From contig DXGR01000092.1 in NCBI GenBank assembly GCA_019113825.1, positions 7,978 to 71,977 on the forward strand: 64,000 bases of DNA. Reading direction: 5' to 3'. The translations under genes were made by a program, and so were the position numbers. The DNA is from Candidatus Stackebrandtia excrementipullorum (lineage in GTDB: Bacteria; Actinomycetota; Actinomycetes; Mycobacteriales; Micromonosporaceae). Positions 9,779 through 11,990 of the stretch are shown piece by piece; within the stretch, counting starts at the first letter, position 1, and each line of letters begins with the position of its first letter. A model generated the notes under the pieces. That model was not told the origin of the DNA and made no database searches. It saw only the letters and a program-made list of their open reading frames with translations.

Positions 9779-10207
9779 GTGACTGAAGTATCGCCCGTTG
9801 GGCTACTCGCTGTCGACCACGTCGGGATCGCCGTACCGGACCTGGCCGAGGCCGTCCGGTTTTACGAGGAGACCCTGGGCGGGCGCTGCGTACACGTGGA
9901 ACGAAACGAAGAACAAGGTGTCGAAGAGGCCATGGTCGCCTTTGGCGACGGAGGTACTCGCATCCAGCTGTTGGCACCGCTGTCTGCGGAGTCGACCATC
10001 GCGAAGTTCATCGGGCGCAACGGCCCCGGGCTTCAACAGTTGGCCTTCACCGTGGCCGATATCACCATGGCCTGCGAGTCGCTACGCGCCCAAGGCCTGC
10101 GGCTGCTCTACGACGCACCGAAACGTGGGACGTCGAACTCCCGCATCAACTTCGTGCACCCGAAGGACGCGGGTGGCGTATTGATCGAGTTGGTCGAACC
10201 GGCTTGA
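9779..10207 (+). CDS. mce: Methylmalonyl-CoA epimerase
   Basis: VDHVGIAV, IQLLAPL, GPGLQQLA, FVHPKDAGGVLIELVE. Confidence 0.96.
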   Translation: MTEVSPVGLLAVDHVGIAVPDLAEAVRFYEETLGGRCVHVERNEEQGVEEAMVAFGDGGTRIQLLAPLSAESTIAKFIGRNGPGLQQLAFTVADITMACESLRAQGLRLLYDAPKRGTSNSRINFVHPKDAGGVLIELVEPA

Positions 10208-10293
10208 CGGTGAGACGTGTGGCTTGAGTATCGGCCCTTGGACGACATAAGCCTTCTTCCGGTGCGTCAAACGCCCCGGTGAACATGGAGGTC

Positions 10294-10467
10294 GCGTCGG
10301 CGAAAGACCCGGCATCGGTACGCACGCGACGATCGAAAGAACCCAGACACCGAACGTGCCGGGCAGCCACCCCAGACTGCCCGGCACTCCCCCCGGTTTG
10401 GTTCACTCGCCCGCGTCGACTAAGGCTGGTAAACGGTGATCCGTTCTTCGCCTCGGTAACGCTGCGT
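10294..10467 (-). ncRNA. Candidate rod-shaped non-coding RNA (about 170-250 nt)
   Basis: Lies downstream of a near-consensus promoter, has no credible ORF, and shows nested complementary segments around the 11-bp core stem 10356-10366/10377-10387. Folded by eye only. Confidence 0.45.
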
Positions 10468-10474
10468 ATCTAGA

Positions 10475-10502
10475 ACTTTACTCTGCGGATTCGTCATGTC
10501 AA
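10475..10502 (-). promoter_or_regulatory. Near-consensus housekeeping promoter
   Basis: TTGACA (10502-10497), 16 nt, TAAAGT (10480-10475), with an AT-rich upstream tract. Confidence 0.65.
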
Positions 10503-10587
10503 GCGAATGGCGAGAAATTCGAGAAAAAGTTTTGAAGACCCGCCCGTACGATCAGCCACGGTCCGCCAAAGGTAATCCGGCATCACG

Positions 10588-11784
10588 TCACCGACCAGCA
10601 CCGACACCGGCACAGTAGCTCTCGCCGGTACCGGTGGTGAACACCTTCCCCACACCTGCCGGAATAAACGCGCCTTGGCCGGGTCGAAGCGTCAAAGAAC
10701 GCTCTCCGTCGTCGATCCGGAGGTCCCCCGACCAACAGAGGATGATCATGGCGCCCTCGGAATGCAGCTCCTGCTCCGTCACCTCATCGTCGAGCCGAAG
10801 GCGCCACAAGGCGAACTCCGGCACCGGAACCGACCATTGACGGAGACCCGGCGTGGGTTCGACGGCGGGGAAACGCGGCTCCGCCATCACCTCGAAACGC
10901 AGGACACGCAGCAGCTCCGGCACGTCCACGTGCTTGTCGGTCAACCCTCCGCGCAACACGTTGTCACTGGCGGCCATGACCTCGATGCCGACGCCACCCA
11001 GGTACGCGTGGAGATTGCCGGCCGGCATGTAGATGGCGTCGCCCGGCTCGAGGAAGAGATGATTGAGTAGCAACGCGACCAGGGCACCCGAGTCGTGCGG
11101 GTACCGAGTGCCCAGGCGGACCACCATCGCGTAGTCGGCCGCGTCGGGCCCCGCCTCGGCGAGGTCGGTCGCGGACGCCACCGCCGCAGCGACCAGCCGG
11201 GTGCGGTGATCAACCGGCAGTGTCAACAGCGTGGTCATCGCCTCGCGCAACGCCTGCGCCTCGTCATCCTGCCTGAGAACGGCGACCAGGCAGGACAGCT
11301 CGTCAACCTTGAGACGTTCGATCGCGTCGGCGGCTTCGGACGGGGGTCGGAATCCACACAGGGCTTCGAACCGGGTAACCGCACACAGCAGTTCGGGCTT
11401 GTGGTGGACGTCGACATACGACCGTTGCGGCGCGTCGAGAGGGACCCCTTCACGCGTCTGACGTGCGAAGCCGTCGGCGGCCTGCTCGCTGTCCGGGTGG
11501 GCCTGGAGTGACAGCGGCTCCTGAGCAGCCAACACCTTCAGCAAGAACGGCAGCCGCTGCCCGTACCGTTCCAGGGAGTCGGTGCCCAACGTCATCACCG
11601 GGTCGGCCGAGATCAGGTCGGCCAGCGACCTTCCGTCCTCAAGCATCGCGGGGTCGCGAGGGTGATCACCAAGCCACAACTCCGCTTCGGGCCGCTGCGT
11701 CGGCTCCGGTCGACCCTGCAAAGCAGCGATCGCACTGTGCGACCCCCATGCATACGGACGGATGGCTCCGTGAAGGAGTTCCAC
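10588..11784 (-). CDS. manA: Mannose-6-phosphate isomerase, class I
   Basis: YAWGS, AELWLGDHP, PLSLQAHP, HKPEL, HAYL, EVMAASDNVLRGGLT; GGGAG RBS before GTG 11784. Confidence 0.96.
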   Translation of the reverse strand: MELLHGAIRPYAWGSHSAIAALQGRPEPTQRPEAELWLGDHPRDPAMLEDGRSLADLISADPVMTLGTDSLERYGQRLPFLLKVLAAQEPLSLQAHPDSEQAADGFARQTREGVPLDAPQRSYVDVHHKPELLCAVTRFEALCGFRPPSEAADAIERLKVDELSCLVAVLRQDDEAQALREAMTTLLTLPVDHRTRLVAAAVASATDLAEAGPDAADYAMVVRLGTRYPHDSGALVALLLNHLFLEPGDAIYMPAGNLHAYLGGVGIEVMAASDNVLRGGLTDKHVDVPELLRVLRFEVMAEPRFPAVEPTPGLRQWSVPVPEFALWRLRLDDEVTEQELHSEGAMIILCWSGDLRIDDGERSLTLRPGQGAFIPAGVGKVFTTGTGESYCAGVGAGR

Positions 11785-11990
11785 GCTGACCAGTCTCCCT
11801 TGAATCGAAAGGTCACATCTTGAAATGGCCGCAGCCAGGCCTACCAGGCCCATGAATCTACCGGTCGACCAAAAATCTTAAATCGGGCAGAATGGTATAT
11901 AACCGGCTTTTCATCAACCGTCAGAGGTCGGTGGAGGGAACCGAAACCCGAAAATGGGTGATCACCCTCAAGGGGCACCCCGGGTATTAC

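What the first reader, a model, noticed from the sequence alone, without database searches (positions are those of the whole stretch)
10221..10502. Strong promoter driving an ORF-less, rod-shaped candidate ncRNA (6S/Ms1-like?)
Seen: the best housekeeping promoter match I noticed in the window (TTGACA-N16-TAAAGT, minus strand) points into a gap of about 260 nt that ends at the convergent mce gene and holds no credible ORF. Nested pairings found by eye: 10294-98/10458-62, 10299-307/10445-52, 10310-16/10438-43, an asymmetric bubble (10317-23 versus 10417-37), 10324-28/10412-16, 10340-43/10400-03, 10349-54/10393-98, and a perfect 11-bp core 10356-66/10377-87. Two further hairpins follow (10259-79, 10221-53). 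A rod of about 170 nt with a central bubble is the architecture of 6S RNA. Actinobacteria are mainly known for the RNAP-binding Ms1 RNA, which usually has a different gene context. Inference: an undescribed abundant regulatory RNA, or an orphaned 5' leader or antisense RNA to mce.
Basis: partly seen in the sequence, partly recalled or inferred. Interest (0 to 1): 0.72.

Follow-up and report, generated by a model that had tools for sequence, protein, structure and literature searches.

The report
Conserved actinobacterial small RNA gene
The flagged gap holds a compact small RNA gene of about 120 nt that is missing from the RNA catalogues searched. It has its own promoter, a terminator and an invariant G-rich single-stranded motif, is conserved across two orders of actinobacteria, and is not the 260-nt 6S-like rod first proposed.

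Summary
The promoter and the GC hairpin are real. The 260-nt 6S-like rod is not.

Comparative data define a compact minus-strand gene of about 120 nt, with a start near 10467 and a 3' end near 10346. Its parts are:
- a sigma-A-type promoter at a fixed distance from a conserved 5'-ACGCAGCG end
- a bulged 5' hairpin
- an invariant, largely unpaired 16-nt motif, AACCAAACCGGGGGGA (10403-10388)
- a strongly covarying terminator hairpin (10387-10356)

The same gene is present in all 10 syntenic genomes fetched through manA alone (Glycomycetales and Micromonosporales). It is also in about 75 soil-metagenome contigs. It usually lies between manA and ahcY. In several lineages it is inverted, or lacks ahcY or manA beside it, so it is an independent gene rather than a leader.

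Conservation stops just after the hairpin. No Rfam family, plasmid, phage or paper matches.

Expression is not demonstrated. The public RNA runs are held only as contigs, and one shows no coverage of the 5' half.

Best reading: a new family of trans-acting small RNA that works through its G-rich single-stranded motif. Its partner may be a C-rich RNA such as 6C, but that is speculative.

The parts
10497..10502 (-). -35 hexamer TTGACA
   Evidence: Found by the consensus scan. TTGAC is at the same distance (-35/-36) from the conserved 5' end in 73 of 76 distinct family members. It is invariant in the four closest relatives.
10474..10480 (-). -10 region (TAAAGT / AAAGTT). The family consensus is TGT-GACTCT, an extended -10 at -15..-7.
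   Evidence: A at position 2 and T at position 6 of the hexamer at -12..-7 are conserved across the family.
10467..10467 (-). Inferred transcription start, the A of 5'-ACGCAGCG. Not mapped experimentally.
   Evidence: It lies 7 nt after the -10. Sequence conservation begins here, and nt 2-4 form the closing helix.
10408..10466 (-). 5' domain. The closing helix P1 is CGC-A-GCG paired with CGC-GCG. Inside it is a variable, bulged hairpin, which is longer in this lineage than in Micromonosporales.
   Evidence: All six first folds give the same topology. P1 cells are 99% paired, with one compensatory G-C to A-U change in the Salinispora locus. In the inner hairpin, 5 of 6 pairs show double changes, and its loops are UUCG, UACG, GAAG or GAAA tetraloops.
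10388..10403 (-). Invariant motif AACCAAACCGGGGGGA in the linker between the two hairpins. This is the proposed interaction site (seed).
   Evidence: It is identical in all 10 genomes retrieved through manA only. Predicted unpaired probability is about 1.0 for AACCAAA and 0.3-0.7 for the G run. G6 and C6 runs are about 10-fold depleted in the window.
10356..10387 (-). Terminator hairpin: 13-bp stem GUGCCGGGCAGUC / GGCUGCCCGGCAC with a 6-nt loop.
   Evidence: All 15 stem pairs in the family show changes on both sides, and 94.5% of cells are paired (MAFFT-based count).
10346..10355 (-). U-rich tail GUUCGGUGUC (GUUCGGUUUU in relatives). This is the probable 3' end.
   Evidence: It is conserved in window, L098, L099 and L001. 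The alignment becomes unalignable immediately after it.
10208..10345 (.). It is NOT part of the conserved RNA. It is probably the mce 3' UTR or spacer.
   Evidence: It cannot be aligned among the four closest relatives. Twelve strain differences fall in 10228-10261. The contig of RNA run X11 runs from mce to 10390.

Best explanation
Window 10467 to about 10346 (minus strand) is an independent small-RNA gene of about 120 nt. It belongs to a family that is not in Rfam.

Proposed steps:
- A housekeeping-type promoter starts transcription at the A of ACGCAGCG (inferred).
- The 5' end is locked into a hairpin domain, and a GC-rich hairpin with a short U-rich tail ends the RNA. Structure is shown by covariation. 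Termination is inferred.
- Between the two hairpins lies an invariant, mostly unpaired 16-nt motif, AACCAAACCGGGGGGA.
- The RNA most likely acts in trans through this motif by base-pairing with a C-rich RNA partner (inferred).

The partner is unknown. The most concrete candidate is the C-rich loops of the actinobacterial 6C sRNA, which would make this RNA a decoy or sponge. C-rich mRNA sites are the alternative.

Because it follows manA without a strong intervening terminator, manA read-through may also feed into it, as in 3'-UTR-type sRNAs. In this lineage the hairpin probably also serves as the 3' end of the convergent mce mRNA.
For: PROMOTER
- Present in the window.
- Kept at a fixed distance from the conserved 5' end in 73 of 76 family members.

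CONSERVATION
- 56 nt are 100% identical to Ca. Stackebrandtia faecavium, although manA is only 65% identical at the protein level.
- The element is present in 10 of 10 syntenic loci fetched by manA alone: window, L001-L005, L096, L098-L100. These span Glycomycetales and Micromonosporales.
- It is also in about 75 metagenome contigs.

STRUCTURE
- Fold z-scores run from -2.6 to -6.5.
- 93-96% of cells are paired, 20-24 of 31 pairs have changes on both sides, 0 of 500 shuffles reach the observed values, and the slid controls collapse.

INDEPENDENCE FROM NEIGHBOURS
- The element is inverted between manA and ahcY in L053/L055 and L036/L072.
- It is convergent with ahcY in L076.
- ahcY is absent or displaced in window, L001, L020, L098, L099 and L100.
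- manA is absent in the L067 type.
- 40 of 59 spacers carry a separate -10-like box for ahcY.

SEED AND SELECTION
- The motif is predicted to be accessible.
- G6 runs are rare in this genome.
- Across strains, purifying selection is visible: 1 difference in 10345-10510, against 14 in 10208-10261 and 5 in 10511-10587.

PRECEDENTS
- 6C binds single-stranded G-rich stretches such as AGGGGGG through the loop UCCUCCCCCCCU without a chaperone (PMC6486639).
- RosA and RsaI are stand-alone sRNAs whose single-stranded G-rich regions sponge C-rich sRNAs (PMC8216469).
- The M. tuberculosis 6C L3 loop paired to the motif gives -19 kcal/mol. This is an illustration only.
Against: - No direct proof of the transcript. 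The public RNA runs are available only as unstranded contigs.
- Run X11 covers mce up to 10390 and shows nothing on 10391-10781. X7 covers the whole gap, promoter included. Soil metatranscriptomes show depth of only 2-8.
- No target was found in the 64-kb window, in the ahcY start regions, or in neighbouring genes of 75 loci.
- In 59 of 68 loci the element sits a median 107 nt upstream of ahcY on the same strand. A cis contribution is therefore not excluded.
- In Micromonosporales the tail after the hairpin is U-poor, so termination may be leaky.
- For the metagenome set, invariance of CGCAGCG and AACCAAACCGGGGGG was imposed by the search pattern. Only the 10 manA-retrieved genomes are unbiased.
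- Complementarity of a G6 run to a C-rich loop carries little information.
Confidence: 0.55

Rival explanations
1. Cis-acting leader or attenuator of ahcY (S-adenosylhomocysteine hydrolase), like a riboswitch. The 5' domain and motif would sense a signal, and the hairpin would terminate or let transcription run into ahcY. The copy in this window would be an orphan.
For: In 59 of 68 distinct loci with enough sequence, ahcY is the next gene on the same strand, a median 107 nt after the hairpin. Low-depth contigs in two runs read from the element into the spacer. The U-tract is weak in Micromonosporales.
Against: - The element keeps promoter, motif and hairpin when inverted (L053/L055, L036/L072), when convergent with ahcY (L076), and when ahcY is elsewhere (window, L001, L020, L098-L100).
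- No conserved alternative (antiterminator) pairing is seen. The stem sequence varies while the linker never does.
- The stem is very stable.
- 40 of 59 spacers carry their own -10-like box.
- There is no match to the SAH riboswitch or to any Rfam cis-regulator.
- The motif shows no complementarity to the ahcY start region beyond shuffled controls.
Confidence: 0.12
2. Protein- or ribosome-binding decoy. The unpaired purine-rich motif, which resembles a G-rich ribosome-binding site, would titrate an RNA-binding protein or 30S subunits rather than pair with another RNA.
For: The absolute invariance of 16 nt across two orders is more typical of a protein or ribosome contact, or of a multi-partner site, than of a single-target seed. 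AGGGGGG is a mapped ribosome-binding site in mycobacteria (PMC6486639).
Against: No start codon sits at a workable and conserved distance after the G run, and no ORF is conserved. Predicted pairing to the 16S 3' end is weak, about -11 kcal/mol. No partner protein is suggested by gene context.
Confidence: 0.15
3. The element has no function as an RNA product. It is simply the shared (bidirectional) terminator and 3' UTR of manA and of the convergent mce gene, and the promoter is fortuitous.
For: In RNA run X11 the mce-side contig stops 3 nt after the hairpin. There is no strong terminator between the manA stop and the hairpin.
Against: A terminator does not explain three observations. First, a -35/-10 pair is kept at a fixed distance in 96% of members. 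Second, the 5' hairpin covaries and a 16-nt single-stranded motif is invariant. Third, the element persists where it is not downstream of manA (L100, the L067 type, and the inverted copies).
Confidence: 0.08
4. A 6S- or Ms1-like RNA polymerase-binding rod of 170-260 nt.
For: The strong housekeeping promoter and the ORF-less gap are real. The claimed arms are complementary. Ms1 was reported as not found in Glycomycetales, so that niche is open (PMC9130861).
Against: - The rod is about 30 kcal/mol worse than the MFE, and the full-length z-score is -1.44.
- Its 3' half is absent or unalignable in the closest relatives, and is polymorphic between strains.
- The conserved unit is about 120 nt, below the roughly 160-nt minimum for 6S or Ms1 (PMC9130861).
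- There is no Rfam 6S hit, even at E up to 10.
- The family also exists in Micromonosporales, where Ms1 is predicted at a different locus (PMC9130861).
Confidence: 0.02
5. It encodes a small protein.
For: Mechanical ORFs start at GUG 10406 and GUG 10387.
Against: Those start codons are not conserved. Length variation in the hairpins does not come in threes, and substitutions are compensatory in stems. There is no Pfam match.
Confidence: 0.02

Closest known systems
6C sRNA (B11 / ncRv13660c / scr3558; Rfam 6C)
   Same: Both are stand-alone sRNAs of about 100 nt, conserved across orders of high-GC Gram-positives. In both, function is vested in a short, invariant, homopolymer-rich, unpaired motif. 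6C acts without a chaperone through G-C pairing (PMC6486639).
   Different: 6C carries C-rich hairpin loops, whereas this RNA carries a G-rich linker between hairpins. There is no sequence or covariance-model similarity. The genomic locus differs. The distribution seen here is narrower, limited to Glycomycetales and Micromonosporales. It may be a partner of 6C rather than a relative.
RosA (Bacillus subtilis) and RsaI (Staphylococcus aureus) sponge sRNAs
   Same: Both are stand-alone genes with a sigma-A promoter and a Rho-independent terminator. Both expose single-stranded G-rich regions that could pair with C-rich sRNAs (PMC8216469).
   Different: RosA and RsaI are from Firmicutes, are longer (RosA about 229 nt) and share no homology with this RNA. 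Here the C-rich partner is only hypothesised and nothing has been tested.
6S RNA and Ms1 RNA
   Same: Both are ORF-less RNAs driven by a strong housekeeping promoter in an actinobacterium.
   Different: 6S is about 180 nt and Ms1 about 300 nt, and both are rods with a central bubble. Ms1 lies between a HAD-IB hydrolase and an oxidoreductase (PMC9130861). This RNA is about 120 nt, has no conserved rod, and lies beside manA.
SAH riboswitch and other terminator-type leaders upstream of ahcY
   Same: The usual position is about 100 nt upstream of ahcY, with a strong hairpin.
   Different: No Rfam match was found. The element works as a unit in either orientation and without ahcY. No alternative pairing is seen.
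3'-UTR-type sRNAs with their own promoter (for example the enterobacterial DapZ and MicL; from my own knowledge)
   Same: The promoter lies just after or within the end of the upstream gene, and the terminator is shared with that mRNA. Here the -35 is 85 nt after the manA stop.
   Different: Those are Hfq-dependent proteobacterial RNAs. Here the link to manA is broken in several lineages.

Membership tests
6S RNA | Match to the Rfam 6S covariance model | tested here: not met
   There were no hits at gathering score in the window. None appeared at E up to 10 in 10100-10700, nor at E up to 5 in 8 related loci.
6S RNA | Conserved rod of about 160-200 nt with a central bubble | tested here: not met
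   The rod is not the MFE, and the full-length z-score is -1.44. The 3' half is not conserved. The conserved unit is about 120 nt.
6S RNA | Binds the RNA polymerase holoenzyme and templates pRNA | not testable with these tools
   This needs pull-down and pRNA sequencing.
Ms1 RNA | About 300 nt (about 230 nt in Streptomyces), located between the HAD-IB hydrolase / morphological-differentiation gene and an oxidoreductase (PMC9130861) | tested here: not met
   The flanking genes are manA and a VOC/mce gene, or ahcY in relatives. Length is about 120 nt.
6C sRNA | Two hairpins with C-rich loops, and a match to the Rfam 6C model | tested here: not met
   No Rfam hit was found. The loops are not C-rich, and the conserved motif is G-rich.
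SAH riboswitch / cis leader of ahcY | Match to the Rfam model | tested here: not met
   No hit was found.
SAH riboswitch / cis leader of ahcY | Always upstream of, and co-oriented with, the regulated gene | tested here: not met
   59 of 68 loci fit this. The element is nevertheless intact when inverted, convergent or without ahcY.
Stand-alone trans-acting sRNA | Own promoter, conserved in position | tested here: met
   This is sequence evidence only.
Stand-alone trans-acting sRNA | Terminator hairpin supported by covariation | tested here: met
   All 15 stem pairs show changes on both sides.
Stand-alone trans-acting sRNA | Discrete transcript of the predicted size | tested here: inconclusive
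   Only unstranded contigs were available. X11 shows nothing over the 5' half, X7 covers everything, and soil runs have depth 2-8.
Stand-alone trans-acting sRNA | Conserved, accessible seed | tested here: met
   The 16-nt motif is invariant in 10 of 10 unbiased genomes and is predicted to be unpaired.
Stand-alone trans-acting sRNA | Identified target with complementary site | tested here: inconclusive
   None was found in the 64-kb window or in neighbouring genes. Whole genomes were not available.
G-rich sponge sRNA (RosA/RsaI type) | Single-stranded G-rich region in a stand-alone sRNA | tested here: met
   
G-rich sponge sRNA (RosA/RsaI type) | Pairs with a C-rich sRNA and lowers its activity or stability | not testable with these tools
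   The 6C gene of a carrier genome could not be fetched. The only result is an illustrative duplex with the M. tuberculosis L3 loop, at -19 kcal/mol.

The most novel reading that the evidence does not exclude
This RNA would be the G-rich counterpart of the 6C sRNA. Its invariant unpaired GGGGGGA, flanked by AACCAAACC, would pair with the UCCCCCC of 6C's C-rich loops and act as a sponge or antagonist. That would be the first sRNA-sRNA regulatory pair in Actinomycetota, analogous to RosA-RoxS in Bacillus. Its conserved place next to manA (cell-envelope mannose supply) and ahcY (methyl cycle) might tie 6C activity to those pathways.
Probability: 0.15. Interest if true: 0.78.

Novelty: new member of a known kind. 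Interest (0 to 1): 0.6.

Why it matters
[quoted passage not shown] 6C, Ms1 and a handful of others make up the list. Those bacteria also lack Hfq and ProQ, so each conserved example helps show how their RNA regulation works.

This family has a clean architecture and a 16-nt motif frozen across two orders. It occurs in antibiotic-producing genera that can be cultured and manipulated (Micromonospora, Salinispora, Actinoplanes). A covariance model is now available to trace it.

A single-stranded G6 run is unusual in genomes that avoid such runs. That points to a specific and testable partner class, C-rich RNAs such as 6C.

The finding also corrects the annotation of the manA-ahcY spacer in hundreds of genomes.

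Tried and rejected
STRUCTURE AND KNOWN FAMILIES
- The 6S/Ms1 rod is rejected on energy, shuffles, conservation and size (PMC9130861).
- Rfam at gathering and at permissive E-values gave nothing, for the window and for 8 loci.

OTHER COLLECTIONS AND LITERATURE
- BLAST of the element against plasmids and phages gave no match.
- A full-text search for the motif string found 0 papers.
- Two keyword searches for an sRNA near ahcY or manA in actinobacteria found nothing relevant.

EXPRESSION
- Five read-laying runs on RNA-labelled runs returned only Logan contigs, which are unstranded and of low depth. They do not settle expression.

TARGETS
- The seed was scanned against the whole window, against ahcY start regions and against 8-mers in 75 loci. 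Nothing rose above chance.

DISTRIBUTION
- Streptomyces, Streptosporangium and Microtetraspora manA hits proved to be paralogues in other contexts and lack the element. They say nothing about those orders.
- The most divergent metagenome type turned out to be Natronosporangium, still in Micromonosporaceae. No third order was demonstrated.

OTHER READINGS
- The small-ORF reading is rejected.
- A G-quadruplex idea was dropped because the first G run is not conserved in the window, L001 or L002.

Full report
WHAT IS IN THE WINDOW

The 380-nt gap 10208-10587 lies between two genes. One is manA (type I phosphomannose isomerase, 10588-11853, minus strand), the last gene of a pmm / SIS-isomerase / manA row.

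TTGACA (10502-10497), 16 nt, TAAAGT (10480-10475) on the minus strand scores 10 of 12. The mechanical ORFs in the gap hit no Pfam family. Rfam finds nothing in the whole window at gathering score. At E up to 10 in the gap it returns only a meaningless hit, H19_2 at E = 9.8.

THE ROD DOES NOT HOLD

The 262-nt transcript folds to -111.1 kcal/mol, but not as a rod. Its z-score against dinucleotide shuffles is only -1.44. Enforcing them costs about 30 kcal/mol. The first 133 nt alone give z = -4.18, with 0 of 200 shuffles folding as well.

COMPARATIVE EVIDENCE REDEFINES THE OBJECT

The closest species-representative genome is Ca. Stackebrandtia faecavium, with manA 65% identical. Directly after its manA it has a TTGACA / TATTGT promoter and the same ACGCAGCGTTACC start. 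It then has 56 nt that are 100% identical to window 10403-10348.

Four Micromonosporaceae genomes carry, in the same place, a promoter, ACGCAGCG, a small hairpin, the string GGGAACCAAACCGGGGGGA, and a long GC hairpin of unrelated sequence.

I then fetched four more relatives through manA alone:
- the Salinispora tropica manA locus (L096)
- two uncultured relatives with manA 77% and 71% identical (L098, L099)
- Actinorhabdospora filicis (L100)

All four have the element. So 10 of 10 syntenic loci, sampled without reference to the RNA, contain it with AACCAAACCGGGGGGA unchanged. They span Glycomycetales and Micromonosporales.

A pattern scan of metagenome contigs (CGCAGCG, 30-60 nt, AACCAAACCGGGGGG) returned 81 loci. 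About 2 were expected by chance. Three look like chance hits and the rest have the full architecture. For these loci the two anchor strings are invariant by construction.

ANATOMY

- Promoter: TTGAC sits at -35/-36 in 73 of 76 distinct upstream regions. The -10 region reads TGT-GACTCT, an extended -10 with A2 and T6 kept.
- Start: the RNA begins at the A of ACGCAGCG.
- 5' domain: nucleotides 2-9 pair with CGCGCG (helix P1, with a bulged A). P1 encloses a bulged hairpin whose apex is a tetraloop (UUCG, UACG, GAAG or GAAA), or a longer variable arm in the window's clade.
- Linker: about 22 nt follow, containing the invariant motif.
- 3' hairpin: it has 13 to more than 25 pairs.

On a MAFFT alignment of 71 sequences, 93% of cells pair and 20 of 31 pairs have changes on both sides. 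No shuffle out of 500 reaches these values, and sliding the partners collapses pairing to 35-57%. On the model-fitted alignment of 78 sequences the figures are 95.6% and 24 of 31. All 15 pairs of the 3' stem covary. P1 shows one G-C to A-U change, in the Salinispora locus.

The linker is predicted to be open. Unpaired probability is about 1.0 for AACCAAA and 0.3-0.7 for the G run.

Typical length to the end of the hairpin is about 113 nt. Window coordinates are:
- start: 10467
- 5' domain: 10466-10408
- motif: 10403-10388
- hairpin: 10387-10356
- tail GUUCGGUGUC: 10355-10346

WHERE THE RNA ENDS

I aligned the window with L098, L099 and L001. Identity runs from the -35 through the hairpin and GUUCGGU, then vanishes.

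The stretch 10208-10345 holds the 3' half of the proposed rod and both 'further hairpins'. It is therefore not part of the conserved RNA. Between strains of this organism, 12 differences are packed into 10228-10261, and they abolish the 10221-53 hairpin. Promoter plus RNA (10345-10510) show a single change, in an internal loop.

INDEPENDENT GENE OR LEADER?

In 59 of 68 distinct loci with enough flank, ahcY (SAH hydrolase) is the next gene on the same strand. The median distance from hairpin to ahcY start is 107 nt. That is a real association and keeps a cis role alive.

Several observations argue the other way:
- The element is inverted between manA and ahcY in L053/L055 and L036/L072.
- It is convergent with ahcY in L076.
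- It is followed by other genes in L020, L098, L099 and L100.
- It lacks manA upstream in the L067 type.
- It has no ahcY anywhere in this 64-kb window.

In all these cases promoter, motif and hairpin are intact. Forty of 59 spacers carry a separate TAnGGT-type -10 box for ahcY. The stem sequence varies freely while the linker never does, so no conserved antiterminator pairing exists. I conclude it is a gene in its own right.

IS IT TRANSCRIBED?

This is not shown. The organism appears in chicken-gut, farm, manure and bovine metagenomes and in two RNA-labelled runs of one study. Those runs are available only as unstranded contigs.
- In X11, depth of about 52 runs from mce to 10390, 3 nt past the hairpin. 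It is then zero up to 10781. The hairpin therefore looks like the 3' end of the convergent mce mRNA, and the 5' half of the small RNA is not seen.
- In X7, one contig spans 9000-10699, including the promoter.
- Soil metatranscriptomes hold the family at depth 2-8, next to ahcY at thousands.

Standard libraries lose structured 120-nt RNAs, so this is weak evidence either way. It does contradict the word 'abundant'.

HOW IT MOST LIKELY WORKS

The design is a protected 5' hairpin, an exposed invariant linker and a terminator hairpin. That is the design of a trans-acting base-pairing sRNA.

The motif is G-rich, which is unusual. It cannot mask Shine-Dalgarno sequences, and it must pair with C-rich RNA. 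G6 and C6 runs are about 10-fold depleted in this window, with 15 seen against 153 expected. The same depletion was reported for Mycobacterium smegmatis (PMC6486639).

That paper shows that 6C sRNA binds unpaired G-rich stretches such as AGGGGGG. It does so through its loop UCCUCCCCCCCU and without a chaperone. In Firmicutes, the stand-alone sRNAs RosA and RsaI use single-stranded G-rich regions to sponge the C-rich sRNAs RoxS/RsaE and FsrA (PMC8216469).

By analogy, the most concrete hypothesis is that this RNA pairs with 6C or another C-rich RNA. The duplex with the M. tuberculosis L3 loop is -19 kcal/mol at the G run. Any G6 run would give a similar figure, so this is a lead and not evidence.

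I found no target in the window, in ahcY start regions or in neighbouring genes. A protein or ribosome decoy role is a fair rival.

COMPARISON WITH KNOWN FAMILIES

It is not 6S, Ms1, 6C or an SAH riboswitch. No model matches, and size, shape and context are all wrong (PMC9130861).

The sequence is absent from plasmids and phages, and the motif appears in no paper of the library.

I could not show it outside Glycomycetales and Micromonosporales. The Streptomyces, Streptosporangium and Microtetraspora loci I obtained are manA paralogues in other contexts. The most divergent metagenome type is Natronosporangium, a member of Micromonosporaceae.

VERDICT

What is there is a new family of an ordinary kind, a small regulatory RNA. 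Its motif conservation is unusually strong, and it suggests a testable and potentially novel partner hypothesis.

Noticed in passing
window 10228-10261 and 10542-10575: Strain differences in public metagenome runs cluster in two short blocks. Twelve changes and one insertion fall just after the mce stop, and five fall between the manA stop and the -35. The 3 kb around them differ at only a handful of sites. The first block rewrites the hairpin at 10221-53.
   Followed up: partly
window 10356-10390, plus strand: In RNA-labelled run X11, the contig coming from mce (depth about 52) ends at 10390, 3 nt past the hairpin. No contig covers 10391-10781. The sRNA terminator hairpin seems to double as the 3' end of the convergent mce mRNA.
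   Followed up: partly
whole window: Runs of six G or six C are about 10-fold rarer than base composition predicts, with 15 seen against 153 expected. This matches the depletion reported for Mycobacterium smegmatis.
   Followed up: no
L015 71-172 (minus strand): A lower-GC metagenome contig has AACCAAACCGGGGGGA followed by a long hairpin and UUUCCCCGG, but a different 5' part. The family model hits it partially (E = 0.001). It may be a distant relative or chance.
   Followed up: no
L006 4195-4490, L009 2295-2680, L010 4210-4560: Three Streptomyces loci hold a manA homologue followed by a secreted glycosidase. They share a CTAAACTTAACCGGTTT box right after the manA stop and a conserved, structured-looking leader of about 330 nt. 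It has no Rfam match.
   Followed up: no
spacer between the element and ahcY in L004, L017, L039, L041, L046, L047, L085, L091 and others: A recurrent CGTA(A/T/G)GGTGG box, a TAnGGT-type -10, lies 30-60 nt upstream of the ahcY start. It is probably the ahcY promoter and is seen in 40 of 59 spacers.
   Followed up: partly
window 10588-11853: The public gene call for manA is 401 aa (P0001). That is 20 codons shorter than the longest ORF from the first ATG.
   Followed up: no
window, origin: The best named manA relatives are Stackebrandtia species (61-65% identity). The sequence recurs in chicken-gut, farm, manure and bovine metagenomes. The source is probably an uncultured Glycomycetaceae of animal-farm habitats. 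Glycomycetales is an order where Ms1 RNA was reported as not found (PMC9130861).
   Followed up: partly
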